Source of the DNA: Minisyncoccota bacterium
Lineage (GTDB): Bacteria > Patescibacteriota > Minisyncoccia > Phycocordibacterales > SBAW01
Reading direction: 5' to 3'
Length of the DNA: 64,000 nucleotides
Assembly (NCBI GenBank): GCA_035546615.1
Contig: DASZWM010000006.1
Span: forward strand, 1-64,000
The first letter of the stretch is position 1. Each line of letters begins with the position of its first letter. Below the pieces are notes generated by a model. It searched no databases, had not been told where the DNA came from, and saw only the letters and a program-made list of their open reading frames with translations. Of this stretch, positions 1,069 through 51,293 are shown piece after piece. Position numbers and translations under genes: made by a program.

Positions 1069-1841
1069 TGAGCAAGGTTTCACCTTGCTCAGACTCAGAA
1101 CTACTCTTTATAGGATAGCCACTCCGTTATGTTTTGCCTGAAGTTCTCCGGCGTTTCAAAATACCGTGGGAGGGCCGTTGATTCCAATACTGTCGCTTCC
1201 GGGCGCCCACGCCCCAGGTAATCGGGATAGCTTGAGTACGCATACCTCTCCAAATATGCGTCGGTTTTTTTCCTATTCTTGATCCCGTGCTCTCTCCAGT
1301 TTTTGTCGATGAGTTTTACCGGATTCAGATGTATATACGAAAGGAGATATTTCAGATACCGGTCTTCTTCGGCGTGTTCCGATTTGAATACCCCCTGGAA
1401 CAGTGCGCCATTCCTTTCGTAGCGTTTATTAAAATACATCGTGTATCCCGTCGTCAGTTTCTGCATGAATCTGCTGATACCGTCGCCACCTTTCTCGCGT
1501 ACCAGCAGGTGAAAGTGGTTCGGCATCAGGCAATATGCAACGATATCGACGAGCGTCTCTCCGCGTTCTTGCGTCAACGCGCGCCCAAGCAAGGTGAAAT
1601 CTTTCGCAGGGTGGGCACGCTGCATATTGTCGATGCGAATTGGTTCTTTAGAATTGGCGAGATAGAGCAGGCATATAAAACGCTCGTAATCTTCCGTATG
1701 CACGAATACCTTTCTTTTGTCCGTGCCGCGGTTGTATAGGTGATAGAACTCTTGGGGAGCGAAAGGCGCGCGATTGGTCATAGGGGCAATATAGTAATGA
1801 ATCCCCATTTGAGCAAGGTTTAACCTTGCTCAAATGGGGAT
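1069..1841. mobile_element. tnpA-only IS200-like / RAYT unit bounded by near-identical palindromic hairpins
   Basis: Left hairpin TGAGCAAGGT-ttc-ACCTTGCTCA (~1069..1091). Right 41-nt perfect palindrome ATCCCCATTTGAGCAAGGTT-t-AACCTTGCTCAAATGGGGAT (~1801..1841) containing the tnpA start codon. Both share core GAGCAAGGTT. Confidence 0.6.
1101..1808 (-). CDS. IS200/IS605-family HUH (Y1) transposase, REP-associated tyrosine transposase (RAYT)-like
   Basis: YHLYNRG N-terminal motif; HUH motif in MPNHFHLLV; downstream Tyr-containing region. Locally lower GC. Flanked by hairpins. Confidence 0.7.
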   Translation of the reverse strand: MGIHYYIAPMTNRAPFAPQEFYHLYNRGTDKRKVFVHTEDYERFICLLYLANSKEPIRIDNMQRAHPAKDFTLLGRALTQERGETLVDIVAYCLMPNHFHLLVREKGGDGISRFMQKLTTGYTMYFNKRYERNGALFQGVFKSEHAEEDRYLKYLLSYIHLNPVKLIDKNWREHGIKNRKKTDAYLERYAYSSYPDYLGRGRPEATVLESTALPRYFETPENFRQNITEWLSYKE

Positions 1842-12497: not shown

Positions 12498-12953
12498 ATG
12501 GCAGTTTCCGCAGAGCAGGTAAAGACGCTTCGCGACCAGACCGGCGTCTCCATGATGGAGTGCAAGAAGGCGCTTGAAGCGGCCGACGGCGACATGGACA
12601 AGGCGCTCGCAATACTCAGCACCCGCAGCGTCGAGATAATGGCCAAGAAGGCCGACCGCACGCTTGCCGCCGGCGTCATTTCTTCCTACATACACATCAC
12701 GGGGCAGGTCGGGGCGATGGTGGCCCTTTCCTGCGAGACCGACTTCGTCGCCAAGAACGAGGAATTCGTGGCGCTTGCGCGCGACATCGCGATGCATGCG
12801 GCCGCCATGCGCCCCGAGAGCGTCGAGGCGCTCCTCGCCCAGCCGTTCATCAAGGACGCGGAGAAGACCGTTACCGATCTCATATCGGCGGCAACGCAGA
12901 AATTCGGCGAGCGCATCGAAATAGGCTCGCTTTCGGTAGCCTCGATAGGGTAG
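12498..12953 (+). CDS. tsf: Elongation factor Ts (short form)
   Basis: VKTLRDQTGVSMMECKKALEAADGDMDKA UBA-like N-terminus; only 151 aa. Confidence 0.85.
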   Translation: MAVSAEQVKTLRDQTGVSMMECKKALEAADGDMDKALAILSTRSVEIMAKKADRTLAAGVISSYIHITGQVGAMVALSCETDFVAKNEEFVALARDIAMHAAAMRPESVEALLAQPFIKDAEKTVTDLISAATQKFGERIEIGSLSVASIG

Positions 12954-13422: not shown

Positions 13423-13495
13423 GCCGGAGTAGCTCAGTTGGTAGAGCGCCGCTTTTGTAAAGCGAGGGTCGTCGGTTCAAGCCCGACCTCCGGCT
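13423..13495 (+). tRNA. tRNA-Thr (anticodon UGU), CCA not encoded
   Basis: Cloverleaf by hand: acceptor GCCGGAG/CTCCGGC, D arm GCTC-AGTTGGTA-GAGC, anticodon stem CCGCT/AGCGA with loop TTTGTAA (anticodon TGT), T arm GTCGG-TTCAAGC-CCGAC, discriminator T. Confidence 0.85.
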
Positions 13496-13561
13496 CAAGT
13501 AAAATTCCTCGTTTAGGCAATGCTATACTTTTTGCATACCCATTAATATCGGTACGCATAT

Positions 13562-15965: not shown

Positions 15966-16727
15966 TTGAGCGATACTTTACGAATCCGTATGTCAGACAC
16001 GCCTACCGGCCACATCCATCCGATTTCAAGCCTTATCCGCGAGGCAAACCGCATATTTGCGGGCATGGGATTCTCCTTCGCCGAGGGCCCGCTCCTGGAG
16101 ACAGAATGGTACAACTTCGACGCGCTCAACGTGCCGAAGGACCATCCCGCGCGCGACATGCAGGACACCTTTTTTATAAAGGACGCGCCGGGCCACGTAT
16201 TGCGCACGCACACCTCGCCTGTCCAGGTGCGCTATATGGAAGCGCAGGCGAAGAAGGGCATCATGCCGCCGTATCGCATCATCGTGCCGGGCCGCGCGTT
16301 CCGCAACGAGGCGACCGACATGACGCACGAGGCCGAGTTCTTCCAGATAGAAGGGCTGGCGGTCGGGCCTGACATCACGCTTGGCAATCTCAAGGGCACG
16401 CTCGAGCAATTCTTCAAGGAATTATTCAAAGGCTCGGTCGAAGTGCGCTTCCGCCCGAGCTTCTTCCCGTTCGTCGAGCCGGGAGTCGAGGTTGATATGC
16501 GCCTGAGCGGCAATGACGTGCCCGAAAAGCTCAAGGATAAGTGGATAGAGATAATGGGCGCCGGCATGGTGCATCCGAATGTGCTAAAGAGCGCTGGGGT
16601 AGATCCGGTTCAGTACCGCGGTTTCGCCTTCGGCATGGGCCTCGACCGCCTCGCGATGCTCCGGTGGGGCATCGACGATATCCGCCTCATGCACTCCGCC
16701 GACCTGCGCTTCATCAATCAATTCTAG
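15966..16727 (+). CDS. pheS: Phenylalanyl-tRNA synthetase alpha subunit, catalytic core only (N-terminal coiled-coil arm absent)
   Basis: Class II core motifs (DHPARDMQDTFF; FRNEATDMTHEAEFFQIEG; GMGLDRLAML); 253 aa. Confidence 0.88.
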   Translation: MSDTLRIRMSDTPTGHIHPISSLIREANRIFAGMGFSFAEGPLLETEWYNFDALNVPKDHPARDMQDTFFIKDAPGHVLRTHTSPVQVRYMEAQAKKGIMPPYRIIVPGRAFRNEATDMTHEAEFFQIEGLAVGPDITLGNLKGTLEQFFKELFKGSVEVRFRPSFFPFVEPGVEVDMRLSGNDVPEKLKDKWIEIMGAGMVHPNVLKSAGVDPVQYRGFAFGMGLDRLAMLRWGIDDIRLMHSADLRFINQF

Positions 16728-16729
16728 AT

Positions 16730-17029
16730 ATGTGGAATATTGATTGGAGCTTAATAGGAATCGTAGGTCTTGCAGTAGCCACTATGTCTATTGCTATTAA
16801 GATTATCGGAGTACCTGACCAGATAAAAAGGAATTATCGTCGCAAATCAACGGAAGGAGTTTCTCTTTTATTCTATGTAATGTCTTTTGCCACTTATTTT
16901 CTCTGGGCATTATATGGATTTTTAAAAGATGATTGGGTTGTGTTTCTCGCTCAAGGTTCTTTAGGCTGTGTCACAAGTGGCATCATTCTTTGGCAATTTT
17001 TTGTGTATAGAAAAAACAAAAAGATATGA
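16730..17029 (+). CDS. SemiSWEET / PQ-loop family small transporter (AT-rich insert in pheST operon)
   Basis: 99 aa, 3 TM; architecture and motifs parallel to SemiSWEETs (…IGVPDQIKRNYRRKSTEGVSLLFYVM…LWALYGFLKDD…); stop overlaps pheT start (ATGA). Confidence 0.6.
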   Translation: MWNIDWSLIGIVGLAVATMSIAIKIIGVPDQIKRNYRRKSTEGVSLLFYVMSFATYFLWALYGFLKDDWVVFLAQGSLGCVTSGIILWQFFVYRKNKKI

Positions 17030-18849
17030 AAATCTCGCGCCGCTGGATTCAAAACTTTTTCAATGACGAACTGTCGAACACGCAGGCGCTTGCCGACGCG
17101 CTTACGTTCCACGCCTTCGAGATAGACGGCATCGAGCCGTATTCTGGACTTACGAAGTCCAGAATTTTGGACGAGATACTGGACGTTAAGGTTACCCCTA
17201 ACCGCGGGCACGATTGCCTGTGTCACCGCGGCATCGCAAAAGAACTTTCAGCCATTCTTAAGCTTCCGCTTAAGCAAGACCCGCTCGGCAAGAAGCCGGA
17301 GCTTGTCCCAGCTACCGATGCCGTTTCCGTAACGCTTGAGGACCCGGCGCTTAGCCCGCGCTACATCGCCGGATACATGAAGAACGTGAAGGTCGGTCCG
17401 TCGCCTGACTGGCTTGTAGAGGCCCTTGAAGCCATGGGCCAGCGCTCAATCAACAATGTCGTTGATGCGACGAACATGGTGATGTTCAATCTCGGCCAGC
17501 CCTTGCACGCCTTTGACGCGGGCAAGCTCGCGCAGAAAGACGGCAAATATGGCATCGTCGTCCGCAGGGCGCGTGCGGGAGAGAAGATCCTCGCGCTCGA
17601 CCAGAAAGAGTATGTCCTTCAGGATTCCATGCTCGTTATTGCCGACGGCAACAAGGACGAAGCTATCGGCATCGCCGGCGTGAAGGGCGGCACGCCGGCG
17701 GGCATTACCGAAGCGACGACCGACATCATCATCGAGTCCGCCAACTTCAACGGCGTGTCCGTCCGTAAGACCGCCCAGGCGCTGAAGCTGCGCACCGACG
17801 CGTCCAGCCGCTTTGAGCAGGGCCTCAGCCCCGAGCTGTGCGCATACGGCATGCAGCAGGTCGTTGATCTCATAAAAACAATCGCAAGCGGGGAACTGGT
17901 CGGCTTTGCCGATGTATATCCGGCGCCCCAAGGGCCCGCCTATGCTGCAGTATCGGTAGAGAAGGTCAATCAGATACTGGGTACTCAGCTCACCGGCACG
18001 GAGGTGGCGGACGCTTTTGCGCGCCTCGGCTTCGCATACAAAGAAGAGAATGGAGTATTCCAGGTCACGGTCCCGTTCGAGCGCCTCGACATAACGATCC
18101 CGGAAGATTTGGTCGAGGAGGTCGGCCGCATCGTCGGCTACGACAAGGTACCCGCTGTGCCTCTGCCTCCCATGCCCCCCTCTTCCCAAGCAAGCGCGAG
18201 CTTCTCGGCGACAGAGCGCGTCCGCGCGGATCTCATAAAGCAGGGATATTCGGAAGTTCTTACGTCCGTATTTTCAGACAAGGGCGAGCGCGCGGTGTTA
18301 AATAAAGTGGACAGCGTAAAGCCGTATTTGCGCAGCAATCTCACCGATGGACTTACCGAAGCTCTGAAAAAGAACATTCCGAACAAAGACCTGCTTGGAC
18401 TTAAGGAAGTAAAGCTGTTCGAGATAGGAACTGTCTGGAAAGGTGATAAGGAGGAAGTAGTGGTCGGCACCGTAAGCGAAAAGAAGCAGGCCGAAGAAAA
18501 AGCGCTGAGCGAATATGCGGCTGATTCGGCTCCTGTACAAGACCTGCCGCTTTCGCAAACGGAGCGGTACCAGTCATTCTCCAAGTATCCCTACATCGTG
18601 CGCGATATCGCTATGTGGACTCCTGCACGTACGACGCCCGAATCGGTTCAGGAACTTATACAGGCTGAGGCGGGGGAGTTGTGCACAAAAGTATCGCTCT
18701 TCGACCAGTTCCAAAAAGGAGAAAAGACTTCGCTCGCGTTCCGCCTAATATTCCAATCATTTGAAAAGACGCTCACGGAAGGGGATGCAAACCAGGCGAT
18801 GGAAAAGGTAGCGGCAAAACTGAAAGAAAAAGGCTTCGAGATCAGGTAA
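17026..18849 (+). CDS. pheT: Phenylalanyl-tRNA synthetase beta subunit (short, 607 aa)
   Basis: N-terminal tRNA-binding (VTPNRGHDCL), B5 domain, C-terminal FSKYPYIVRDIAMW anticodon-binding region. Confidence 0.88.
   Translation: MKISRRWIQNFFNDELSNTQALADALTFHAFEIDGIEPYSGLTKSRILDEILDVKVTPNRGHDCLCHRGIAKELSAILKLPLKQDPLGKKPELVPATDAVSVTLEDPALSPRYIAGYMKNVKVGPSPDWLVEALEAMGQRSINNVVDATNMVMFNLGQPLHAFDAGKLAQKDGKYGIVVRRARAGEKILALDQKEYVLQDSMLVIADGNKDEAIGIAGVKGGTPAGITEATTDIIIESANFNGVSVRKTAQALKLRTDASSRFEQGLSPELCAYGMQQVVDLIKTIASGELVGFADVYPAPQGPAYAAVSVEKVNQILGTQLTGTEVADAFARLGFAYKEENGVFQVTVPFERLDITIPEDLVEEVGRIVGYDKVPAVPLPPMPPSSQASASFSATERVRADLIKQGYSEVLTSVFSDKGERAVLNKVDSVKPYLRSNLTDGLTEALKKNIPNKDLLGLKEVKLFEIGTVWKGDKEEVVVGTVSEKKQAEEKALSEYAADSAPVQDLPLSQTERYQSFSKYPYIVRDIAMWTPARTTPESVQELIQAEAGELCTKVSLFDQFQKGEKTSLAFRLIFQSFEKTLTEGDANQAMEKVAAKLKEKGFEIR
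17141..17165. repeat. 25-nt perfect palindrome ATTCTGGACTTACGAAGTCCAGAAT inside pheT (codes YSGLTKSRI)
   Basis: Read directly; same core recurs at 43719 and 27626. Confidence 0.9.
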
Positions 18850-23720: not shown

Positions 23721-24344
23721 ATGACCCAGACTCACGGCAAAAAGCAGAGTGCAGCGGCGAAGACGGGGGCATTCCTGCTCACCTTCGTTATGCTCTTTGC
23801 TATTACGTACGGCTTCCTCGCGGTTGTCGACGTGTTGCCTGAGGACGGTCAAAAGGACGCGGCACCTTCCCATATCGCAGCGCAGGACGCAGGCGCTATA
23901 GAGGCTCCGGTTCGCGTGAAGGCTCTTGATGTCGGGCTTGATGCCAATGTCACGAACCCGAACACGACCGACCTCGACGCTTTGGACGCGGCGCTTGAAA
24001 ACGGCGCAGTGCGCTATCCGACCTCGGCGATGCTTGGCCAGGAGGGTACGGTGCTCCTTTTCGGGCACTCGTCCTACCTGCCGGTCGTGTACCACCAGTA
24101 CTACAAGACCTTCAATAAGGTGCAGAACCTTACGAAAGGCCAGGTAATAAGCGTCTATTCCGGCACCATGGAATACCGCTATGCGGTCACGAATGTCCGG
24201 GTTGCCGATGCGACCGAGGATGTGGTAGAACTTGCATCAAACGGCAAGCACCTTGTCTTGGTCACTTGCGACTCGTTCAAGTCCAAATCCAGCCGCTTCG
24301 TGGTTACAGCGGACTTTGTAGGGACGTATTCTCTCGCCAACTAA
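23721..24344 (+). CDS. Sortase-family transpeptidase
   Basis: N-terminal TM anchor; LLFGHSS (His) and LVLVTCDSF (TLxTC catalytic Cys) motifs; 207 aa. Confidence 0.65.
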   Translation: MTQTHGKKQSAAAKTGAFLLTFVMLFAITYGFLAVVDVLPEDGQKDAAPSHIAAQDAGAIEAPVRVKALDVGLDANVTNPNTTDLDALDAALENGAVRYPTSAMLGQEGTVLLFGHSSYLPVVYHQYYKTFNKVQNLTKGQVISVYSGTMEYRYAVTNVRVADATEDVVELASNGKHLVLVTCDSFKSKSSRFVVTADFVGTYSLAN

Positions 24345-26232: not shown

Positions 26233-27531
26233 ATGAACAGCAATATTATAAACATAGGTCGTAAGATAAGCGTTGCTCTTATAGCGCTTATAGTTCTCGT
26301 GTTGCCTTTCGCTTCGGTGCAGGCAGCTGACTACTCTGACTATGATTATGTCGGGACCTCGTATTATGGTTCTGACTCTTCTAGCGATTACGTCGGGACT
26401 TCCTATTATGATTCCGGTTCTTCAAATAGTGGGAGCGATTACGTAGGAACGTCTTACTATACTCCTGATACTTCCAATGACTATGATTACGTTGGAACTT
26501 CGTACTATGAAGATAACTCTTCTGACTATGATTATGTCGGAACCTCCTATTATGGCTCTGGCTGCACCACGAACTGTGGCGGCGGTGGAGGTGGCGGCGG
26601 GGGCGGCGGATGCCGTTCTAACTGCACCCCTCCTCCTCCGAAGCCGGCCCCGGTTTGCGACCTCTCGGTCAGCCCTTCGCGCGTAGATTACGGCGATTCC
26701 GTAACTATCTCCTGGACCACGTCCAACGCCATCAGCGCCTTCCTCGCCGGTTTCGGCACGGTGTCCACTAACGGCTCCCGCACCAGCGGCGCTATCTATG
26801 GCACCAAGACCTACACTCTTACCGCGACCGCAAGCGGCGGCCGCACGGTAACCTGCTCCAAGACCGTTACAGTCGAGCGCGAGCATGAGCACACGCCCGA
26901 TCTCGAGTGCAAGCTTAAGGCTTCCGACACGAGCATCGAGCGCGGAGACTCGGTCCGCATCACCTGGTCTAGCGACGGCGCTGACTACGGCTACATCACT
27001 CCGGATATCGGTGATGTCGATGAAAGCGGTTCCGACACGGTAGAACCTCGCTCTGATACGACTTACAAGGGTACCTTCTACAACGACGACGGCGACAAGG
27101 TTACCTGCTCGGTCAAGGTAAACGTTGACCGCGAGTACAATCCGCCGGTCTACGAGAATCCGACTCCGTACATTAACCTCTCCGCTGTTCCGTACACCGG
27201 CCTTGACCTCGGTCCTGTCGGTACGGTTCTCTACTGGGCGTTCCTCATCGCATGGTGCCTCGTTGCCGCATACCTTATCGCGGTCAAGCGCGTCCACATG
27301 AGCGTGTACCGCTGGTACAAGAAGGCGCTCTTCGGCGAGGAGGTGCACTTCGCGCCGGCGCAGGAAGTCTCCTTCGCAGGGTTCTCCCACGCTGATGTCG
27401 CAAAGCTCGCAGAGATGCTTCGCGGCGCAGTCGCTCCCTCGCACGCTTCGGCACCTGTTGCTGCAGCTCCCGCAGGCGATGCGATAGACCCGTTCATCCT
27501 CTCGCAGATCCATCGCACTCCGCGCTCCTAA
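26233..27531 (+). CDS. Surface repeat protein: 5x DYVGTSYY repeats, poly-Gly/Cys spacer, two Ig-like C...C domains, TM, cytoplasmic tail
   Basis: Signal peptide; repeats D-Y-(D-Y)-V-G-T-S-Y-Y separated by S/D-rich spacers; CGGGGGGGGGGGGC; PPPPKP; two ~70-aa Cys-bounded beta-rich modules; VLYWAFLIAWCLVAAYLIAV TM. 5' third is AT-rich. Confidence 0.5.
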   Translation: MNSNIINIGRKISVALIALIVLVLPFASVQAADYSDYDYVGTSYYGSDSSSDYVGTSYYDSGSSNSGSDYVGTSYYTPDTSNDYDYVGTSYYEDNSSDYDYVGTSYYGSGCTTNCGGGGGGGGGGGCRSNCTPPPPKPAPVCDLSVSPSRVDYGDSVTISWTTSNAISAFLAGFGTVSTNGSRTSGAIYGTKTYTLTATASGGRTVTCSKTVTVEREHEHTPDLECKLKASDTSIERGDSVRITWSSDGADYGYITPDIGDVDESGSDTVEPRSDTTYKGTFYNDDGDKVTCSVKVNVDREYNPPVYENPTPYINLSAVPYTGLDLGPVGTVLYWAFLIAWCLVAAYLIAVKRVHMSVYRWYKKALFGEEVHFAPAQEVSFAGFSHADVAKLAEMLRGAVAPSHASAPVAAAPAGDAIDPFILSQIHRTPRS

Positions 27532-27652: not shown

Positions 27653-28900
27653 TTATTTGCGCTCGGCTATCTCTTCCTTCAGTTTTGAAACTATTTCGGC
27701 AATGGGGAGTGCTCCAAGTTTGCCTTCGCGGCCCTCAAGGCTTGCGGTGTTGGCTGCAACTTCCGCGTCGCCGATCACAAGCGTGTAGGGGATTTTCTGC
27801 GTCTTTGCCTCGCGTATCTTCTTGCCTAGGCTCTCATTGCTTTCGTCGATGTCCGCGCGGATGCCAGCCCTCTTGAGCTCCTGCGCGACCTTTGCGGCAA
27901 ATTCTTTGTGCGGCTCGGCAATAGGAATGACGCGAGCCTGAAGGGGAGAAAGCCAGGTGGGAAGCGTGCCGTCGTAGTGCTCAAGCAGTACCGCGATGCA
28001 GCGCTCGAGGCTGCCGGCTATAGCCGCGTGCACCATCACGATGCGCTCCTTCTCGCCCTTTTCATTGATGCAGGTAAGGTCGAAGCGCTCGGGGATGTTC
28101 ATGTCGAGCTGGATGGTCGCGACCTGCCACTCGCGCCCGGCGGAATTCTTTGCCATGAAATCGAGCTTGGGCCCGTAGAGCGCCGCCTCGCCCGGGCCTT
28201 CAAACGTGTCGGCCCCGCGTTCCTCGGCAAGGCTGCGCAACTCGCTCTCGGCCTTGTCCCATATCTCCGGGGTACCTAGATATTTCTCGGGAGTCGCCGG
28301 GTCGCGGAAGGAAAGCCGTATACGCAATGTGAAGCCGAATGTCTTGTAGAAGGTGTCAACGATATCCCAGATCTTTAGGAATTCCTCGCGCACCTGACTA
28401 GTGCGGCAGAATACGTGTGCGTCGTCCTGAGCAAAACCCAAAACGCGAGTGAGGCCGCCAAGCTCTCCGGACTGCTCGTCGCGGTAGACCATGGTGGTCT
28501 CGGCGTAGCGCTGCGGCATCTCGCGGTACGAGAACGGCCGCCGCGCGAATATCTGCGTGTGGTGCGGGCAATTCATCGGCTTCATCGCGTACTCGCGGCC
28601 CTCGCGCGACGTTATCTTGAAGAGGTCATCGGCGAACTTTTCCCAGTGGCCGCTTGTCTCATAGAGGTCTTTCTTGGTGATGTGGGGGATGGTGACGCGC
28701 TCGTAGCCTCGCGCTTCGCGCATCTCCCAAATAAAGCGGTCGAGCTCCTGGCGCAGAATAGTGCCGCGCGGGGTCCACAGCGGCAGGCCCGAGCCGACGA
28801 GGTCGGAGAAGGTGAAGAGGTCGAGCTCCTGGCCAATTTTGCGGTGGTCGCGTTCTTCCATAGATAGTTCCAAGAGTATCAAGTGTGGGGATTTTTGCAA
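27653..28900 (-). CDS. thrS: Threonyl-tRNA synthetase, catalytic + anticodon-binding domains only (no N-terminal TGS/editing domains)
   Basis: PMNCPHH, RVLGFAQDDAHVFC class II motifs; 415 aa versus ~640 aa canonical. Confidence 0.88.
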   Translation of the reverse strand: MQKSPHLILLELSMEERDHRKIGQELDLFTFSDLVGSGLPLWTPRGTILRQELDRFIWEMREARGYERVTIPHITKKDLYETSGHWEKFADDLFKITSREGREYAMKPMNCPHHTQIFARRPFSYREMPQRYAETTMVYRDEQSGELGGLTRVLGFAQDDAHVFCRTSQVREEFLKIWDIVDTFYKTFGFTLRIRLSFRDPATPEKYLGTPEIWDKAESELRSLAEERGADTFEGPGEAALYGPKLDFMAKNSAGREWQVATIQLDMNIPERFDLTCINEKGEKERIVMVHAAIAGSLERCIAVLLEHYDGTLPTWLSPLQARVIPIAEPHKEFAAKVAQELKRAGIRADIDESNESLGKKIREAKTQKIPYTLVIGDAEVAANTASLEGREGKLGALPIAEIVSKLKEEIAERK

Positions 28901-28956
28901 AAGAAAAAGAGGGCGGCCCGGCCTTCTTGTCGAAGGCCGGGCCGGCAGGAAAACCG

Positions 28957-29328
28957 TCAGGCGTAGCGCCGTTCAGTTTGCTGTACGCACGCAAGAGGGA
29001 GGTCAACGCAGGCGCTCAGCAGCTCGCGTACGCGCTGGAACTGCTGCGGGCTCCGGGAGCCTGCGGTGAAATCCATCAAGACATGGGTTTCGGTAGCGAC
29101 GGTGCGGCGTACGGAGGCCGCTTTGTCGTTCAGGACGCGCTGCAACTTGCGGCCGATCTCGGTATCCAGAAGCGGAAGCAGCTTCATGCTGAATGCACGC
29201 ATCTCGCTGTAGAAGGATTTCTCCTGCGCGTGATTCAGTCCTTCGTGGAATTTTTCCGCTTCCGCGGCAAGTTCGGTGGCTGTGCGGCGGAGATCCTCCG
29301 GTCGCGTGAGCTGCACAACTGTATTCAT
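28957..29328 (-). CDS. Hypothetical protein
   Basis: AAAGGA RBS upstream of ATG; hairpin + T-run terminator downstream (28908..28946). Preferred over an overlapping + strand ORF. Confidence 0.4.
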   Translation of the reverse strand: MNTVVQLTRPEDLRRTATELAAEAEKFHEGLNHAQEKSFYSEMRAFSMKLLPLLDTEIGRKLQRVLNDKAASVRRTVATETHVLMDFTAGSRSPQQFQRVRELLSACVDLPLACVQQTERRYA

Positions 29329-29458: not shown

Positions 29459-29492
29459 CGACCCGGCGCCCTCCAACGAGGGCGCCGGGTCG
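29459..29492 (-). terminator. Hairpin CGACCCGGCGCCC-tccaacga-GGGCGCCGGGTCG downstream of minus-strand ORF 29515..29802
   Basis: Perfect 13-bp stem; T-rich on the minus-strand continuation. Confidence 0.5.
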
Positions 29493-29514: not shown

Positions 29515-29802
29515 TTAAACGGTATGGTAGGCGACGCTACGGCAGAGATTCTGCAGCTCGGTCCATGCCCCGATGCACTCTCCTCCGCTTGAAGGAGCGT
29601 TGCGGAACCGGACCACTGCGTGCTCGATCTTGATATCCCCGGTGTATGTCGATTGGGCATACGCCGTTTCGAGCTCGATGAGCATTCCGTCGGTAATGAT
29701 GTCTTCCTGGGGGTCGGCGTCGGCAATCGCCTTGGCCGCCTTTCGGAACCGGTCATCCTTCAGGCTGTCATGAATGAGGCGGGGGCGTTGAGCTGTATGC
29801 AC
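29515..29802 (-). CDS. Hypothetical protein
   Basis: GGGAGGG RBS; perfect 13-bp hairpin terminator just downstream (29459..29492). Confidence 0.4.
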   Translation of the reverse strand: MHTAQRPRLIHDSLKDDRFRKAAKAIADADPQEDIITDGMLIELETAYAQSTYTGDIKIEHAVVRFRNAPSSGGECIGAWTELQNLCRSVAYHTV

Positions 29803-29886: not shown

Positions 29887-32871
29887 CTACAGCGCCTTCA
29901 GCTTGTCGGCCACCATCGAAAGCTCGCCGTTGCGGCTGGAAAGGCGGCCCTTCAGCGCGATGACCGTCTCGGGCTTGAGAATGTCGCGGAATTCCTTGTA
30001 GATGCGCGGAAAGACGGCCGCCTCTATCGTGCCGTCAAAGTCGGTCAGCCTTACGAACGCCATCTGGTCGCCGCCGCGCGTCAGTATCATGCGCACGTCC
30101 TCTATCATTCCCGCGGCCACGGCCGTCATGCCCGGGGCCAGGTCGCGGCGCATCTGCCCCAGCGTCATCGGGCGCTTGGAGAGCTGTTCCTTGAACCGGT
30201 CAAGCGGATGCCCGGACACGTAGAGGCCCAGCAATTCTTTCTCCCACGCCAGGCGGTCTGCCATAGGCGCTTCAGGCGCGGCGGGGAGCGTTATGTCGCT
30301 GACGGCCAAGTCGCTGCCGAAGAGGGAATCGTGCTGCTGCTCTTTGCAATTCTCGCGGTGATATTCCAAAAGCAATTCTATGGATGAGAGCATCTGGCCG
30401 CGCTCGCCCAAGGAATCAAGCGCCCCGCACTGGATGAGCGACTCGAGGCCCTTCTTGTTGAGGTTCTGGTCCTTCACGCGGCGCAGGAAATCGGAGAGGC
30501 TCACGAAGCGACCATTCGCCTTGCGCTCGCTGATTATCGCGTCGGCTACGCCGCGGCCGAAGTTCTTGATGGAATACAGCCCGAAGCGGATGGAATCGGT
30601 TTCGATATCGCCCGCGACCGCCGCCGCCTTTTCAGTGCGCGGGGTGTTCTTGCTGACGAGCGCGGTGAAGTCGCCGAAGCTCTCGTTCACGTCGGGAGGC
30701 AGCACCGGAAGCCCCAGGCGCTTGCACTCGCCGACCATTATGGAGACGGTCTCGACGTCGCCCGCTTCCGCCGTGAGCACCGCCGACATGTACTCGACCG
30801 GGTAGTTGGCCTTCATGTACGCGGTCTGGTACGCGACCTTGCCGTATGAGGCGGCATGGGCCTTGTTGAATCCGTACGCGGCGAACGGCTCGATGAGCTT
30901 CCACAGCTGCTCGCCGAGCGCCGGCGAGAGCCGGCCGTATTCCTTGAATCCCTTGATGAGCTTTTCTTTTTCCGCGGCCATGACCTCGGGAATCTTCTTG
31001 CCCATAGCCTTGCGCAGCTTGTCCGCCTCGAGCCACGAGTACCCCGCGAGCTTGATGGAGGTCAGGAGCACGTCGTCCTGGTACACGAGACAGCCGTAGG
31101 AGAAGTCGAGGAACTCCTTCATCCGCGGGTCGAGATACTTGATGAGCGCCGGATTATGCTTGCGCTCGATGTACTGCGGGATGGTTTCCATCGGCCCCGG
31201 GCGGAAGAGCGCCACCATGGCGTTTATGTCGTGGATGGTCGATGGCTTCAGTTCCTTCAAATAGCGCGTCATGCCGGCGCCGTTCAATTGGAACGTGCCT
31301 TCAGTCTCGCCGCGCGCGAGCATTTCGAACGTTTTCTTGTCGTCAACCGGCACGTTCTCGATATCGAGCGTAATGCCGCGCGTCGTTTCAACGAGCTCGA
31401 CCGCGTGAGCCAAAATTGCCAGGTTGCGGATGCCGAGGAAGTCGAATTTCAGGAGCCCCGCTTCCTCAATGGAGTACATATCGTACTGGGTGATGAGCTT
31501 GCCGCCCTTGGGGTCGCGCTGTATCGGTGCGTATTCGACAAGCGGCTTGGGGGCGATAACGACGCCGGCGGCGTGCACGGAGATGTGCCGCGCGCAGCCT
31601 TCTATTGTTTTGCCGAGGTCGATGATGTCCTTAACGTCGGGCTCCTCGTTATATATTTTTGCCAGCTCCGGGGTTTCGGCGATGGCGCGCTCCAGCGTCA
31701 TGGGGAAGCCCTGGCTGCCGAAGGGAATGAGCTTTGCAATGCGGTCGCCCACCCCGTAGGGGTAGCCCAAGGCGCGCGCCACGTCGCGCACGACGCCGCG
31801 CGCGAGCATGGTGCCGAAGGTGCCTATCTGCGCGACCTTCTCGTCGCCGTACTTGGCCCTGGCGTACTCGATTACCTCGTCGCGCCTGTTGTCGGCGTAG
31901 TCCATGTCGATGTCCGGCGCCGAGGGGCGCTCGGGGTTGAGGAAGCGCTCGAACGGCAGCTTGTACTCAAGCGGGTTCACGTTGGTGATGCCGGTCACAT
32001 AGGTTACGAGCGAGCCTGCGACCGAGCCGCGGATGGTGGTAAGTATCTTGTTGGCGCGCGCGAACGCGAGCAGGTCGGCCACCACCATGAAATACGGCGA
32101 GTAGCCTTTCTTGCAGATGATGCCGTACTCATACTCGATGCGCTCGCGTACCGCCGGATCGTCCAGGAGGCCGCGCTTCTCAATGCCCGCTTCGATAAGC
32201 TTTCGCAATTCCGCGTCATAGGTTGAGCCGTCAGGAATTTTCAGGTCGGGGAACACCCAGGTGCCGAGCGCAAGCTCCAGTTCGCACTGGCTCGCTATTT
32301 CGAGCGTTCGTGCAAGCTGGGCGGGGGTAAAGCGTTCCTCCATTTCGGCGGCTGAAGGAAAGTGATGGTCCGTATCCTCGGCGTCTATATCGCCGCCTTC
32401 GTTGGCGCCCTTGTTTTCGATAGCCCGCATCGTTTCCCACGCGCGCTGGTCTTCGGGCTTCAGGTAATAGATCTCAGGCAGGGCGATGGTTTGGTCGGCC
32501 GGGTCGAGCGTGATGATGCCGCTCGCGTGCGCTTTAAGCATCGCGTCGGTCACCGTCGGGTTGTCGGGGAACTCAAGCTGCGAGTCGGTGACAATCTTGA
32601 GCAGATTCTGGTAGCCTTCGAGGTTCTTGGCGTACAAAAGCACGCGCTTGCCGTCGCCCAAGTGGGCGGAGAGCCCGATAATGGGCTTGATGCCGGCGCC
32701 CTTGCACTCCTTGTAGAATTCGATGGCGCCGTAGAGGTTGCCGAGGTCGGTGAGCGCGAGCGCCTCGCAGCCTTCCGCTTTCGCGCGCTTCACGAGGTCC
32801 GGAATCTTCGGCAGGGCCCTGAGCAAAGAGTAGTGCGAGTGGACGTGGAGGAGTGCGAATCGAGCGGCCAT
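29887..32871 (-). CDS. dnaE: DNA polymerase III alpha subunit (short, 994 aa)
   Basis: N-terminal PHP domain (LHVHSHYSLL); polymerase core motifs; OB-fold region near C-terminus. Confidence 0.9.
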   Translation of the reverse strand: MAARFALLHVHSHYSLLRALPKIPDLVKRAKAEGCEALALTDLGNLYGAIEFYKECKGAGIKPIIGLSAHLGDGKRVLLYAKNLEGYQNLLKIVTDSQLEFPDNPTVTDAMLKAHASGIITLDPADQTIALPEIYYLKPEDQRAWETMRAIENKGANEGGDIDAEDTDHHFPSAAEMEERFTPAQLARTLEIASQCELELALGTWVFPDLKIPDGSTYDAELRKLIEAGIEKRGLLDDPAVRERIEYEYGIICKKGYSPYFMVVADLLAFARANKILTTIRGSVAGSLVTYVTGITNVNPLEYKLPFERFLNPERPSAPDIDMDYADNRRDEVIEYARAKYGDEKVAQIGTFGTMLARGVVRDVARALGYPYGVGDRIAKLIPFGSQGFPMTLERAIAETPELAKIYNEEPDVKDIIDLGKTIEGCARHISVHAAGVVIAPKPLVEYAPIQRDPKGGKLITQYDMYSIEEAGLLKFDFLGIRNLAILAHAVELVETTRGITLDIENVPVDDKKTFEMLARGETEGTFQLNGAGMTRYLKELKPSTIHDINAMVALFRPGPMETIPQYIERKHNPALIKYLDPRMKEFLDFSYGCLVYQDDVLLTSIKLAGYSWLEADKLRKAMGKKIPEVMAAEKEKLIKGFKEYGRLSPALGEQLWKLIEPFAAYGFNKAHAASYGKVAYQTAYMKANYPVEYMSAVLTAEAGDVETVSIMVGECKRLGLPVLPPDVNESFGDFTALVSKNTPRTEKAAAVAGDIETDSIRFGLYSIKNFGRGVADAIISERKANGRFVSLSDFLRRVKDQNLNKKGLESLIQCGALDSLGERGQMLSSIELLLEYHRENCKEQQHDSLFGSDLAVSDITLPAAPEAPMADRLAWEKELLGLYVSGHPLDRFKEQLSKRPMTLGQMRRDLAPGMTAVAAGMIEDVRMILTRGGDQMAFVRLTDFDGTIEAAVFPRIYKEFRDILKPETVIALKGRLSSRNGELSMVADKLKAL

Positions 32872-41687: not shown

Positions 41688-42122
41688 ATGCTTACCATCC
41701 GACTCCAGCGCCGCGGACGCAAGAACGACCCGTCTTTCCGGGTTATTCTCGTTGAGTCCAAGCGTGCAGCAAAGACCGGCAGCTTCCAGGAGGTCCTCGG
41801 CTCATACGACCCGCGCGTTGACCGCACCGACCTCAAGGCCGACCGCATCAAGCACTGGATAGGCATGGGCGCGACCGTTTCCGACACCGTGCACAACATC
41901 CTCATCAATCAGAAAGTCATCGAGGGCAAGAAGATAAACGTGCTCCCGCGCAAGAGCCCGCCGAAGAAGGCGGAAGAGGCGGCTGCAGCCGCTCCCGCAG
42001 CAGAAGCGGCAGCTCCTGAAGCAGCCGAGACCACTGAAGAAAAGGCAGAGGCGACGTCTCCCGAGGCAAAAGCGGAAGAAGCTGTGAATACCGAGGTTGC
42101 TGAGGAAACTCCCGCACAATAG
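41688..42122 (+). CDS. rpsP: 30S ribosomal protein S16 with K/A/E-rich C-terminal extension
   Basis: MLTIRLQRRGRKNDPSFRVILVESKRA S16 signature. Confidence 0.9.
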   Translation: MLTIRLQRRGRKNDPSFRVILVESKRAAKTGSFQEVLGSYDPRVDRTDLKADRIKHWIGMGATVSDTVHNILINQKVIEGKKINVLPRKSPPKKAEEAAAAAPAAEAAAPEAAETTEEKAEATSPEAKAEEAVNTEVAEETPAQ

Positions 42123-42235
42123 AATAGAGGCAGGGATTTATCATCAAACGAGTGAGGAACAAAAACGAGTTTTTGATTCCGAGCGAGAGCAGATGATACA
42201 GATTTCCTAATCTTTAATAAACTAAATATACTGAA

Positions 42236-42622
42236 ATGGCAGCAGAGAGAGATCAGGAGTTTTTGGAATTTGTCGTAAAAGGTCTTGTCGAGAATCCGGA
42301 CGCGGTTAAGATAACTCGCGCCGTAGACGAAATGGGCGTTCTTTTGACGCTCGACCTCCATCCGGATGACATGGGCAAGGTTATCGGCCGCTCGGGCAAT
42401 ACCGCCAAGGCAATACGCACGCTTCTTCGCGTCGTTGGCATGAAGCACAATGCCCGCGTGAACCTTAAGATAAACGAACCGGCAGGAGGGCTTCGCGATC
42501 CTGCTATGAGCGCTCCGAGCGGCGGCAGCGCTGCCCAGGGCTGGGACGGCAGCCACGAGGCTCCCGCAACCCCTGCGATGAAGTCGGTGGACGAGGCGAT
42601 GGACGAGCTCTCAAAGTTCTAA
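42236..42622 (+). CDS. KH-domain RNA-binding protein (YlqC-like) with C-terminal extension
   Basis: GKVIGRSGNTAKAIRTLLRVVG KH motif; classic position downstream of rpsP. Confidence 0.75.
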   Translation: MAAERDQEFLEFVVKGLVENPDAVKITRAVDEMGVLLTLDLHPDDMGKVIGRSGNTAKAIRTLLRVVGMKHNARVNLKINEPAGGLRDPAMSAPSGGSAAQGWDGSHEAPATPAMKSVDEAMDELSKF

Positions 42623-42660
42623 TCTCAGATATTTTAGCAAAGGCCGCCGCAAGGCGGCTT

Positions 42661-43500
42661 TTGCTTTTCCCGCCCTCCTTTATACTGTGGAGTATGTATC
42701 CTCCTGTTTCTGACCTGCTCGCAGAGCTCTCTTTATTTCCCGGAAGGGAAGACGGCTTGCGGAAAATTAAAAGGTATAGCAATGAGAAAGTAGCTTTTTA
42801 CCGCTCTTCTGATTTTTCTCATAGCAAGAGAGTGGCGTGGCTTGTATATAGTCTCATCCCATTATTATCAGAGGTAGATAAGACTTTTGATATAGGGCGC
42901 GCTGTGGCTATGGCGCTCGTGCACGACGATGCTGAACTGATAACGGGTGATCATCAAGCTGGTAATAAAAGCAAAATGACCAAAGAGCAGCTTGCTGCAA
43001 TTGCTGACGAAGAACGTGAAGCGATTGCCGCTTTGGCAAAGAGATATCCAAAAACTCTCGGCGGATATGTCTATCAGGACCTAGTACAAGATCTCGCTGA
43101 TCTAAAGAATTCTGAAGCTCATTTTGTTAAGTACTTTGATCGTTTTGATGCTTTGGGGGAGACTTACCATGAACTCTTTGCAGGGAATGTGGTTTGGACG
43201 CAAAACGTAGTTAATGAGTGGGGCATCATTCCCACACCTTTTATGTATTACTACGATAGGCTGCCGCCCATGGTTGAGAAGTATCCGATCCTGACTGCTT
43301 TAAAAGGAAAACATGTATTCTTCGATGTCCCTGAAGCCAGAGAATGGGAATCATTTGTCCTGACTCGTCAGCCTCATACAAAGGATTCAATACTTGCGTC
43401 TACTGGTCATAGGCAATATGATGCCTGGCGCTCTGTTGTTATTGATTCTGCAGATCAAGAAGAAATCGCAAATCTCTACTCTCAACAAGAATACCTATGA
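42661..43500 (+). CDS. HD-domain phosphohydrolase (YfbR/5'-deoxynucleotidase-like), AT-rich insert
   Basis: H...HD motif (ALVHDDAELITGDH); gene visibly AT-rich relative to flanks; stop overlaps trmD start (ATGA). Confidence 0.65.
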   Translation: MLFPPSFILWSMYPPVSDLLAELSLFPGREDGLRKIKRYSNEKVAFYRSSDFSHSKRVAWLVYSLIPLLSEVDKTFDIGRAVAMALVHDDAELITGDHQAGNKSKMTKEQLAAIADEEREAIAALAKRYPKTLGGYVYQDLVQDLADLKNSEAHFVKYFDRFDALGETYHELFAGNVVWTQNVVNEWGIIPTPFMYYYDRLPPMVEKYPILTALKGKHVFFDVPEAREWESFVLTRQPHTKDSILASTGHRQYDAWRSVVIDSADQEEIANLYSQQEYL

Positions 43501-44153
43501 ATTTCCATGTCGTAACGCTTTTTCCGGAAGTTATCGAGGCCTATACGAACGCTTCGATACTGGGCCGTGCCCAGAAAGAGAAGAAGTTTTCCGTTAAGAC
43601 CTACCAGCTGCGCGATTTCGTCAGCAATAAATGGGGCAAGGTAGACGAGCGCCCATACGGCGGCGGCCCGGGCATGGTTATCCAGGCCGAGCCGGTCATC
43701 AGGGCAGTCCAGAAAATATCTGGACTTACGAAGTCCAGAATTCGGCCGAAGGTCATTATTACTGCGGCAGGCGGCAAGCCTTTGACCAACGCGTATGCCA
43801 AAGCGCTTTTGAAGCAAAAGGACGTCATAATCGTTTGCGGCAGGTACGAAGGCATCGACGCCCGGGCAAAAAAAGTGCTCAAGGCCGAAGAAGTCTCCGT
43901 TGGGCCGTACATTCTGACCGGGGGCGAGGTTCCGGCCTTGGCAATCATTGATGCGACCGCTCGGCAGATAAAGGGCGTTTTGGGCAAGTTCGAGTCCCTC
44001 GAGGAGTCCCGGGTCGCAAGCCACGAGATATACACCCGCCCCGAGGTCCTGAAAGCAAAAGGAAAGAACTACGCGGTCCCGAAGGTCCTCCTCTCCGGCC
44101 ATCATGCAAAGATGGACCAGTGGAAAGAAAAGAAACGCAGCAAACCCCTATAA
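43497..44153 (+). CDS. trmD: tRNA (guanine37-N1)-methyltransferase
   Basis: MNFHVVTLFPEV...; RPYGGGPGMV; CGRYEGIDAR SPOUT-knot motifs. Confidence 0.9.
   Translation: MNFHVVTLFPEVIEAYTNASILGRAQKEKKFSVKTYQLRDFVSNKWGKVDERPYGGGPGMVIQAEPVIRAVQKISGLTKSRIRPKVIITAAGGKPLTNAYAKALLKQKDVIIVCGRYEGIDARAKKVLKAEEVSVGPYILTGGEVPALAIIDATARQIKGVLGKFESLEESRVASHEIYTRPEVLKAKGKNYAVPKVLLSGHHAKMDQWKEKKRSKPL
43719..43739. repeat. Palindromic element copy TCTGGACTTACGAAGTCCAGA inside trmD (codes ISGLTKSRI)
   Basis: Identical 21-nt core and identical reading frame as the pheT copy. Confidence 0.9.

Positions 44154-44315: not shown

Positions 44316-51293
<6,978 letters not shown>

What the first reader, a model, noticed from the sequence alone, without database searches (positions are those of the whole stretch)
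27653..28900. Domain-stripped aminoacyl-tRNA synthetases: ThrRS lacking N1/N2 editing domains; PheS lacking N-terminal arm; short PheT
ThrRS is 415 aa, i.e. catalytic plus anticodon-binding domains only. PheS (253 aa) starts directly at the catalytic core. PheT is 607 aa versus ~795 aa in canonical bacterial enzymes. Loss of the ThrRS editing domain implies either a freestanding trans-editing factor (as in some archaea) or tolerated Ser mischarging. This matters for proteome fidelity in reduced genomes.
Basis: partly seen in the sequence, partly recalled or inferred. Interest (0 to 1): 0.5.

Follow-up and report, generated by a model that had tools for sequence, protein, structure and literature searches.

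The report
Editing-domain-free ThrRS in a Paceibacteria genome
This small-genome bacterium (Candidate Phyla Radiation, Paceibacteria) makes its threonine-charging enzyme without the usual proofreading domain and its phenylalanine-charging enzyme without two accessory RNA-binding modules; this is real and shared by many related species, but it is a new case of a known kind of reduction.

Summary
ThrRS is 402 aa (ATG 28861, not the 415-aa TTG ORF), identical to GenBank HVV15309.1 from a Candidatus Paceibacterota MAG. It holds only the class II core and the anticodon-binding domain and aligns to E. coli residues 241-635. PheS is 245 aa with no N-terminal arm. PheT is 607 aa, lacking B2 and half of B6/B7.

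This is not an artefact. 69 of the 80 best related GTDB species loci have the same short ThrRS, with stops shortly upstream. Sister lineages in the same DnaE-ThrRS-GyrB synteny carry an intact N2 editing domain, so N2 was lost in situ, probably twice. All zinc and catalytic residues are invariant.

No tRNA_SAD, YbaK, DTD or ThrRS-ED protein lies in the 64-kb window. No N2, YbaK, Dtd, YeaK or AlaRS-editing homologue lies within 10 kb of ThrRS in the relatives. The whole genome could not be checked.

PheRS keeps an intact B3/4 editing site, so only ThrRS lost proofreading. B2 loss in CPR PheRS-beta is already published. Natural editing-free ThrRS is known from yeast mitochondria and Crenarchaeota. 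I found no paper on the CPR ThrRS case. Verdict: new member of a known kind, of moderate interest.

The parts
27653..28861 (-). thrS: minimal threonyl-tRNA synthetase, 402 aa (GenBank HVV15309.1), with no N1 (TGS) and no N2 (editing) domain
   Evidence: TIGR00418 scores 492 bits, matching profile positions 167-564 of 565. The protein aligns to E. coli residues 241-635.
27974..28621 (-). Class II catalytic core (Pfam tRNA-synt_2b), including zinc ligands Cys98, His149 and His278 (E. coli C334, H385, H511)
   Evidence: residues 94-309 of the 415-aa ORF; 16 of 17 active-site residues checked are invariant in all 70 N2-less sequences, and the 17th (S517) is Ser in 68 of 70.
27671..27940 (-). HGTP anticodon-binding domain of ThrRS
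   Evidence: PF03129, E = 2.7e-22.
28914..28944 (-). Terminator-like hairpin (13-bp stem followed by a T-run) that ends the upstream small ORF about 50 nt before the thrS start, making thrS its own transcription unit
28957..29328 (-). 123-aa ORF with no family match. It occupies part of the DnaE-ThrRS gap where sister lineages encode the N2 domain, and it is found only in the closest relatives.
   Evidence: no Pfam match. (no similarity to N2). (homologues only in L007 and L078).
29515..29802 (-). 95-aa lineage-specific ORF followed by a second strong hairpin (29459-29492)
29887..32871 (-). dnaE, the conserved upstream synteny anchor of thrS
15990..16727 (+). pheS: PheRS alpha subunit, 245 aa (GenBank HVV15298.1), catalytic core only, without the N-terminal coiled-coil arm
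   Evidence: The protein aligns to E. coli residues 103-326. Relatives have PheS of 235-253 aa.
16730..17029 (+). Small SWEET/PQ-loop membrane protein gene inserted between pheS and pheT
   Evidence: MtN3_slv 8e-12, PQ-loop 2e-9.
17026..18849 (+). pheT: PheRS beta subunit, 607 aa (GenBank HVV15300.1). It has B1, B3/4 (editing site intact), B5, half of B6/B7 and B8. B2 and about 85-90 residues of B6/B7 are absent.
13423..13496 (+). tRNA-Thr(UGU), a substrate of the enzyme

Best explanation
This is the organism's housekeeping threonyl-tRNA synthetase in a minimal two-domain form: class II catalytic core plus anticodon-binding domain. It became fixed in a large part of the Paceibacteria (Parcubacteria) when the N-terminal N2 editing domain was lost in situ.

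Shown: the architecture; the absence of any N-terminal coding potential; conservation across about 70 species; conserved synteny with N2-bearing orthologues; and invariance of the zinc and active-site residues.

Inferred: the enzyme works like the engineered E. coli delta-N ThrRS (residues 242-642). It activates threonine on the catalytic zinc, which excludes valine, and charges tRNA-Thr. It has no cis post-transfer editing of Ser-tRNA-Thr. Serine errors are then limited only by active-site discrimination, possibly with Ser-AMP hydrolysis in the synthetic site as in yeast mitochondrial MST1, and the rest is tolerated.

PheRS in the same genome is also trimmed: alpha lacks the coiled-coil arm, and beta lacks B2 and part of B6/B7. 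It keeps a complete B3/4 editing site, so its proofreading against tyrosine is probably retained.
For: - Domain content and boundaries. The natural N-terminus coincides with that of the crystallised delta-N constructs 1EVK and 4HWO.
- Not an artefact: the product is identical to a GenBank protein of 402 aa. The top 120 homologues are 402-460 aa, all but one of them 416 aa or shorter. In 69 of 80 GTDB species loci no N2 domain is present and at most 108 codons are open upstream of the core. A terminator hairpin lies directly upstream.
- In-situ loss: sister loci with the same DnaE-ThrRS-GyrB order carry N2 fused to a core that is 61-67% identical. Close full-length relatives keep the HxxxH and CxGGH editing motifs.
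- Functional enzyme: the 17 catalytic and zinc residues checked are invariant or nearly so in all 70 N2-less sequences.
- No editing partner nearby: Pfam scans of essentially all window ORFs find none. The N2 profile finds nothing in the six-frame window. E. coli YbaK, Dtd, YeaK and AlaRS-editing seeds find nothing in the window or in 1.4 Mb of relatives' loci.
- Short N2-only proteins in the database are contig-end fragments or frameshift-split thrS genes, not free-standing factors.
- PheT editing residues are conserved.
Against: - Only 64 kb of a contig of at least 208 kb, and none of the rest of the genome, could be searched. A trans-editing factor elsewhere (AlaX, ProXp-ST, a ThrRS-ED-like protein or an unknown fold) is not excluded.
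- No biochemical data exist. Serine misactivation, pre-transfer editing and actual Thr-to-Ser error rates are all inferred from E. coli and yeast mitochondrial enzymes.
- I could not verify that this is the only thrS copy in the genome.
Confidence: 0.7

Rival explanations
1. The editing function was outsourced. A free-standing trans-editing protein elsewhere in the genome (AlaX-type, ProXp-ST/YbaK-type, archaeal ThrRS-ED/DTD-like, or a new fold) clears Ser-tRNA-Thr, as ThrRS-ed does for ThrRS-cat in Crenarchaeota.
For: - There is precedent for split ThrRS-cat and ThrRS-ed in archaea (review PMC7373986).
- The catalytic pocket is identical to that of editing-proficient enzymes, so serine misactivation is expected and there would be selection to clear it.
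- Most of the genome was not searchable.
Against: - None is present in the 64-kb window.
- Searches with the N2 profile and with E. coli YbaK, Dtd, YeaK and AlaRS-editing seeds find none within 10 kb of thrS in 80 related species.
- A CPR N2-profile search of 5.8 billion proteins returned only fragments or frameshift-split thrS among the short hits examined.
- No conserved neighbour accompanies the short thrS.
Confidence: 0.22
2. The short protein is an auxiliary ThrRS paralogue, for example an inhibitor-resistant or stress isoform, that coexists with a canonical full-length ThrRS.
For: - Short ThrRS paralogues exist in other bacteria. One 413-aa representative comes from a Myxococcaceae MAG.
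- Duplicated ThrRSs are known in cyanobacteria (PMC4787780, listed).
Against: - The short gene sits in exactly the syntenic position (DnaE-ThrRS-GyrB) that the full-length orthologue holds in sister lineages.
- It scores above the thrS equivalog cut-off.
- The GTDB scan returned one locus per genome among the 80 listed.
- The one closed relative is only 0.86 Mb (CP066682.1), and from my own knowledge CPR genomes are generally under about 1 Mb, so aaRS duplication is unlikely.
Confidence: 0.05
3. The truncation is an assembly or annotation artefact: a frameshift, a mis-called start, or a chimeric contig.
For: Frameshift-split thrS genes do occur in some long-read assemblies.
Against: - The same architecture is found in 69 independent species-level genomes from many studies.
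- No N2-like sequence occurs in any frame of the window.
- Two terminator hairpins and unrelated ORFs fill the upstream gap.
Confidence: 0.01

Closest known systems
Yeast mitochondrial ThrRS MST1 (PDB 3UGQ, 3UH0, 4EO4)
   Same: A natural ThrRS made only of the catalytic core and the anticodon-binding domain, with no N1 or N2. It is the homologue found at E = 6.6e-73. From my own knowledge, it proofreads Ser-AMP in the synthetic site.
   Different: It is eukaryotic and organellar, and much more divergent than bacterial ThrRS is from this protein. The window protein is a bacterial chromosomal housekeeping gene. Its closest solved relatives are S. aureus and E. coli ThrRS (384 and 324 bits).
Crenarchaeal split system ThrRS-cat / ThrRS-ed (e.g. 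Aeropyrum pernix ThrRS-1, PDB 3A31)
   Same: thrS is shortened so that the synthetase lacks the N-terminal editing domain (PMC7373986). It was hit at E = 6.8e-55.
   Different: There, a separate DTD-like ThrRS-ed gene supplies editing in trans, and the enzyme is of the archaeal type. Here the enzyme is of the bacterial type (TIGR00418 at 492 bits, against archaeal PRK03991 at 212 bits, below its cut-off). No partner was found in the window or near thrS in relatives.
Engineered E. coli delta-N ThrRS (residues 242-642; PDB 1EVK, 1EVL, 1FYF, 1KOG)
   Same: The boundaries are the same to within a residue or two: window residues 4-401 align to construct residues 1-394. Zinc ligands and pocket residues are identical.
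   Different: The E. coli form is a laboratory construct. From my own knowledge, it charges tRNA-Thr with serine. The Paceibacteria form is natural and conserved across many species.
Mollicutes aaRSs with degenerate or deleted editing domains (ThrRS, PheRS, LeuRS)
   Same: Small-genome, host-dependent bacteria that lose aaRS proofreading and lack YbaK, ProX and AlaX (PMC4014445; PMC7373986).
   Different: PMC4014445 and PMC7373986 describe the Mollicute editing domains as mutated, deleted or degenerate, and PheRS editing is among the functions affected. Here N2 is cleanly absent from ThrRS and PheRS editing residues are intact.
CPR PheRS-beta lacking the B2 domain (Mukai et al. 2017, Life 7:8)
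   Same: This is exactly the PheT feature seen here. [quoted passage not shown]
   Different: That paper does not mention the additional B6/B7 shortening, the arm-less PheS or the ThrRS truncation.

Membership tests
Bacterial-type threonyl-tRNA synthetase (NCBIfam TIGR00418 thrS) | Whole-protein score above the curated equivalog cut-off | tested here: met
   492.2 bits against a cut-off of 383.65.
Bacterial-type threonyl-tRNA synthetase (NCBIfam TIGR00418 thrS) | Class II catalytic core with zinc ligands Cys334, His385 and His511, plus motif 2 and motif 3 arginines | tested here: met
   These residues are all present and invariant in 70 N2-less relatives.
Bacterial-type threonyl-tRNA synthetase (NCBIfam TIGR00418 thrS) | C-terminal HGTP anticodon-binding domain | tested here: met
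   PF03129, E = 2.7e-22.
Bacterial-type threonyl-tRNA synthetase (NCBIfam TIGR00418 thrS) | N2 editing domain (tRNA_SAD fold, HxxxH and CxxxH motifs) | tested here: not met
   No PF07973 hit. Profile positions 1-166 are unmatched. The CPR N2 profile finds nothing in the six-frame window; the best E-value is 2.2.
Bacterial-type threonyl-tRNA synthetase (NCBIfam TIGR00418 thrS) | N1 TGS domain | tested here: not met
   No TGS hit. It is also absent from the N2-bearing CPR relatives of 586-590 aa.
Bacterial-type threonyl-tRNA synthetase (NCBIfam TIGR00418 thrS) | Threonylation of tRNA-Thr | not testable with these tools
   This needs an aminoacylation assay. A tRNA-Thr(UGU) gene is present at 13423-13496.
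Split archaeal-style system ThrRS-cat + ThrRS-ed | Synthetase lacking the N-terminal editing domain | tested here: met
Split archaeal-style system ThrRS-cat + ThrRS-ed | Separate gene for a ThrRS editing domain (PF08915 or a DTD-like protein) in the same genome | tested here: inconclusive
   It is absent from the 64-kb window. An E. coli Dtd seed also finds nothing within 10 kb of thrS in 80 relatives.
Split archaeal-style system ThrRS-cat + ThrRS-ed | Archaeal-type ThrRS sequence | tested here: not met
   Archaeal model PRK03991 scores 212 bits against a cut-off of 484.
Bacterial (alpha-beta)2 phenylalanyl-tRNA synthetase | PheS and PheT equivalog scores above their cut-offs | tested here: met
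   pheS TIGR00468 scores 299.7 against 237.45. pheT TIGR00472 scores 448 against 402.65.
Bacterial (alpha-beta)2 phenylalanyl-tRNA synthetase | Alpha-subunit N-terminal coiled-coil arm (PF02912) | tested here: not met
   There is no Pfam hit. The alignment starts at E. coli residue 103. Only 28 bp of upstream intergenic DNA are available.
Bacterial (alpha-beta)2 phenylalanyl-tRNA synthetase | Beta-subunit B2 OB-fold (tRNA_bind) | tested here: not met
   E. coli residues 41-154 and T. thermophilus residues ~40-134 have no counterpart.
Bacterial (alpha-beta)2 phenylalanyl-tRNA synthetase | Beta-subunit B3/4 editing domain with catalytic residues (E. coli R244, N254, H265, G318, E334, T354, A356) | tested here: met
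   PF03483, E = 1.5e-58. All seven residues are conserved in the alignment.
Bacterial (alpha-beta)2 phenylalanyl-tRNA synthetase | Beta-subunit B8 FDX-ACB anticodon-binding domain | tested here: met
   PF03147, E = 1.4e-20.

The most novel reading that the evidence does not exclude
A very large radiation of environmental bacteria translates threonine codons with no post-transfer proofreading of Ser-tRNA-Thr at all. This includes Paceibacteria such as the Adler-, Kaiser-, Nomura-, Zambryski- and Moranbacteria. N2 would have been shed at least twice independently.

The loss would be one step in a graded minimisation of aaRSs. In sister lineages that series may end with the (alpha-beta)2 PheRS being replaced at the same locus by a ~376-aa single-chain, mitochondrial-like PheRS without any editing domain.

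Either these organisms live with a 'statistical proteome', or they use an unrecognised proofreading mechanism.
Probability: 0.3. Interest if true: 0.65.

Novelty: new member of a known kind. Interest (0 to 1): 0.35.

Why it matters
ThrRS editing of Ser-tRNA-Thr is regarded as a near-universal fidelity checkpoint. The known natural exceptions are organellar (yeast mitochondria), split (Crenarchaeota) or degenerate (Mollicutes).

A clean, conserved loss across dozens to hundreds of CPR species, with intact-N2 sister lineages in the same synteny, offers a natural comparative system. It could be used to ask how much Thr-to-Ser mistranslation a free-standing cell lineage tolerates, or whether the synthetic site alone can proofread.

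It also has a practical side. Annotation pipelines and marker-gene sets should expect ~400-aa ThrRS, ~245-aa PheS and ~600-aa PheT in Paceibacteria and should not flag them as fragments.

Tried and rejected
- **Upstream exon or alternative start.** Rejected. The upstream gap holds two unrelated small ORFs and two terminator hairpins, and shows no N2 similarity in any frame.
- **The 123-aa upstream ORF as a new editing partner.** Rejected. It has no family match, looks helical by eye, and is present only in the two closest relatives.
- **Free-standing N2 genes in CPR.** A profile of five CPR N2 domains returned many 170-320-aa tRNA_SAD proteins. Most lie on contigs of a few kb, several are annotated 'partial', and they are probably contig-end fragments. 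All five that I looked up on long contigs sit directly upstream of thrS catalytic fragments. They are frameshift-split genes; L002 is split at an A6 homopolymer.
- **Convergent compensatory substitutions in the catalytic core.** I looked for changes shared by the two N2-less groups. None were found. Group B looks like the N2-bearing clade at nearly all discriminating columns.
- **Extending the window along its own contig.** The source contig is not in the positional index.
- **T-box or other leader RNA upstream of thrS.** Rfam finds only the tRNA in the window.
- **Literature.** Four searches combining ThrRS or aminoacyl-tRNA synthetase terms with CPR, Patescibacteria or Parcubacteria found no paper describing the ThrRS truncation. 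Melnikov et al. [quoted passage not shown]
Full report
**What is at the coordinates**

The minus-strand ORF 27653..28900 (415 aa from a TTG) is a threonyl-tRNA synthetase. Pfam finds only the class II core (tRNA-synt_2b, residues 94-309 of the ORF) and the HGTP anticodon-binding domain (residues 321-410). The NCBIfam thrS equivalog TIGR00418 scores 492 bits against a cut-off of 384, but it matches only profile positions 167-564 of 565.

BLASTP against E. coli ThrRS, fetched as L001, aligns the protein to residues 241-635 at 41% identity. The natural N-terminus therefore coincides with that of the engineered delta-N ThrRS constructs that were crystallised, such as 1EVK and 4HWO.

The true start is almost certainly ATG 28861, giving 402 aa. 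That product is 100% identical to GenBank HVV15309.1, 'threonine--tRNA ligase [Candidatus Paceibacterota bacterium]', on a 208,416-bp MAG contig. The best 120 homologues are 402-416 aa, with one of 460 aa.

**PheS and PheT**

PheS (GenBank HVV15298.1, 245 aa from ATG 15990; 253 aa from the TTG at 15966) matches pheS TIGR00468 positions 62-322 of 324 and E. coli PheS residues 103-326. The divergent upstream glycosyltransferase gene begins 28 bp away, so an N-terminal arm cannot be encoded.

PheT (HVV15300.1, 607 aa) has B3_4, B5, half of the catalytic-like module and FDX-ACB. Against E. coli it aligns as residues 1-40, then 155-517, then 698-788. Against T. thermophilus it aligns as 135-586 and 676-780. 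B2 and roughly 85-90 residues of B6/B7 are therefore missing.

The PheRS editing-site residues R244, N254, H265, G318, E334, T354 and A356 (E. coli numbering) are all conserved. PheRS has lost accessory RNA-binding modules, not its proofreading site. A small SWEET/PQ-loop membrane gene sits between pheS and pheT.

**Is the truncation real?**

Upstream of thrS, on the minus strand, the order is as follows:
- dnaE;
- a 95-aa ORF;
- a 15-bp-stem terminator-like hairpin;
- a 123-aa ORF;
- a 13-bp-stem hairpin with a T-run (28914-28944);
- about 50 nt further on, the thrS ATG.

Neither small ORF has a family match. I built a profile (A1) from the N2 domains of five full-length CPR ThrRSs. It finds nothing in any of the six frames of the whole window; the best E-value is 2.2.

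A scan of GTDB species representatives found 228 genomes encoding relatives. The best 80 loci (63-91% identity) are labelled Paceibacterota, Adler-, Kaiser-, Nomura-, Zambryski-, Lloyd- and Moranbacteria, and they include a closed chromosome, CP066682.1. Only 11 of these 80 carry an N2 domain, fused in frame. The other 69 have no N2 within 10 kb and at most 108 open codons, usually fewer than 30, upstream of the core. Sixteen of the 17 zinc-binding and catalytic residues checked are invariant in all 70 N2-less sequences, and the 17th (S517) is Ser in 68. This is a functional, conserved gene form, not an artefact.

**How it arose**

The gene order is RNase R - SMC - RNase III - NusB/Nudix - L32 - RNase HII - DnaE - (small ORFs) - ThrRS - ... 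- sortase - GyrB - PheT - PheS. It is conserved in relatives at 77-85% ThrRS identity.

In a sister lineage (L002), the same DnaE-ThrRS-GyrB arrangement has a 185-aa N2 domain directly before a core that is 61% identical to ours. The apparent split there is a +1 frameshift next to an A6 run, that is, a sequencing error in a full-length gene.

The nearest 50%-identity cluster representatives form a graded series:
- 418 aa with no N-terminal domain;
- 518 aa with a transmembrane helix and coiled coil in place of N2;
- 586-590 aa with N2 carrying intact HxxxH and CxGGH motifs but no TGS domain;
- 578 aa with N2 whose motifs are degenerate.

A neighbour-joining tree places the N2-bearing loci between two N2-less groups. 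The smaller N2-less group shares nearly all discriminating residues with the N2-bearing clade. N2 was therefore lost in place, probably twice. NJ resolution is limited, so this is inference.

**Is there a trans-editing partner?**

Essentially every plausible ORF in the window was scanned against Pfam. No tRNA_SAD, YbaK/tRNA_edit, Tyr_Deacylase or tRNA-Thr_ED domain was found.

I used E. coli YbaK, Dtd, YeaK (annotated in the record as a mischarged aminoacyl-tRNA deacylase), the AlaRS editing region and the ThrRS N-terminus as phmmer seeds. They found nothing significant in the six-frame window or in 1.4 Mb of relatives' loci, apart from the 11 fused N2 domains and the split thrS controls.

The N2-profile search of the 5.8-billion-protein collection returned many short tRNA_SAD proteins. 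Most lie on contigs of a few kb, several are annotated 'partial', and they are probably contig-end fragments. All five that I examined on long contigs lie directly upstream of thrS catalytic fragments, so they are frameshift-split genes. The two small ORFs upstream of thrS occur only in the two closest relatives.

The source contig is not in the positional index, so I could not look beyond the window. A factor elsewhere in the genome is not excluded.

**Mechanism**

Shown:
- a two-domain ThrRS with an unaltered zinc site and amino-acid pocket;
- no cis editing domain;
- no nearby partner.

Inferred from established knowledge of E. coli ThrRS:
- The zinc site rejects valine but admits serine.
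- The delta-N enzyme produces Ser-tRNA-Thr.
- The Paceibacteria enzyme should therefore misactivate serine at a similar intrinsic rate.

Three outcomes are possible: tolerated Thr-to-Ser mistranslation, as argued for Mollicutes (PMC4014445; PMC7373986); pre-transfer hydrolysis of Ser-AMP in the synthetic site, as reported for yeast mitochondrial MST1 (my own knowledge; the structure was hit); or an unidentified trans factor. I favour the first two together (0.7) over a trans factor (0.22).

**Comparison with what is known**

Natural editing-free ThrRSs are known from yeast mitochondria and, as a split system with ThrRS-ed, from Crenarchaeota (PMC7373986). Degenerate editing domains are known from Mollicutes and other host-restricted bacteria. 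[quoted passage not shown] 2017 (PMC5370408). [quoted passage not shown]

Four searches for ThrRS truncation in CPR, Patescibacteria or Parcubacteria found nothing. Melnikov et al. 2018 is not held. The proteins themselves are deposited and named by PGAP.

The finding is therefore a new member of a known kind. It is a bacterial-type ThrRS by every sequence criterion except the two N-terminal domains, and it works like MST1 or delta-N ThrRS without being a member of those lineages.

**Clade-wide context for PheRS**

In relatives, PheS is 235-253 aa in eleven complete cases and 284 aa in one, including lineages whose ThrRS keeps N2. PheT is 590-646 aa in most. It is 779-783 aa in two N2-bearing lineages and about 460-490 aa in two others.

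Other small-genome trimming is visible in the window. EF-Ts is 151 aa and matches only the first third of the EF_TS profile, SMC is about 787 aa, and rpoB and rpoC are fused into one 2325-aa ORF.

**Verdict**

Novelty is modest and interest moderate (0.35). The more interesting open questions are whether any Ser-tRNA-Thr proofreading remains in these organisms, and the side lead of a single-chain PheRS-like family in sister lineages.

Noticed in passing
L010, L016, L031, L039, L040, L048, L049, L051 (13350-14486), L054, L055, L058 (related Paceibacteria loci, not the window): In these relatives a ~376-aa single-chain protein sits directly next to gyrB, where PheT-PheS sit in the window and other relatives. 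It combines a PheS catalytic core with a C-terminal FDX-ACB domain, the layout of mitochondrial PheRS. No PheT lies within 10 kb. The protein scores below both the pheS_mito and SrmL cut-offs (214-222 bits). More than 100 homologues of 74-100% identity exist in Nomurabacteria and Paceibacterota, and NCBI mostly labels them 'hypothetical protein'. This may be replacement of (alpha-beta)2 PheRS by a monomeric, editing-free PheRS. I did not check whether canonical pheST exists elsewhere in those genomes.
   Followed up: partly
window 44316-51293 (+): A single 2325-aa ORF carries RpoB domains (Rpb2_1 to Rpb2_7, residues 60-1088) followed by RpoC domains (Rpb1_1 to Rpb1_5, residues 1107-2203). It is a fused beta-beta' RNA polymerase subunit, and from my own knowledge of the E. 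coli proteins it is shorter than those two subunits combined.
   Followed up: no
window 12498-12953 (+): EF-Ts is only 151 aa and matches positions 1-72 of the 204-position EF_TS profile. The C-terminal half seems to be absent, another trimmed translation factor.
   Followed up: no
window 16730-17029 (+): A ~99-aa SWEET/PQ-loop (MtN3_slv) membrane protein gene is wedged between pheS and pheT. It starts right after the pheS stop and overlaps the pheT start by 4 nt.
   Followed up: no
P0122 (518 aa, metagenomic; not in the window): A ThrRS core 61% identical to the window's carries an N-terminal transmembrane helix and a coiled-coil segment instead of N2. It may be a membrane-anchored ThrRS or a mis-called start.
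   Followed up: no
P0135 (578 aa, metagenomic): A related ThrRS keeps an N2-length N-terminal region, but the HxxxH and CxxxH editing motifs are degenerate. It looks like an intermediate state between intact and deleted editing domains.
   Followed up: no
window 42000-44000; ORF 42661-43500 (+): A local G+C dip (0.50 against about 0.59) surrounds an HD/YfbR-like 5'-deoxynucleotidase gene with third-position GC of 0.39, while neighbouring genes have 0.7-0.85. It may have been acquired recently.
   Followed up: no
window 1101-1808 (-): An IS200-like Y1 transposase homologue (PF01797, E = 3e-9) lies next to the glycolysis and pentose-phosphate gene cluster.
   Followed up: no
window 26233-27531 (+): A 432-aa protein lies convergent with thrS. 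It has an N-terminal signal-like segment, repeated 'DYVGTSYY' motifs, a Gly run and a C-terminal transmembrane helix. Homologues lie next to thrS in most relatives, often in two or three copies, and a sortase gene is nearby (23721-24344). It may be a sortase substrate or surface protein.
   Followed up: partly
L044 (15354-16775) and L045 (14421-15899): PheT in these two relatives appears to be only about 460-490 aa and lacks the C-terminal FDX-ACB region in the same frame. This is either further truncation or a frameshift.
   Followed up: no
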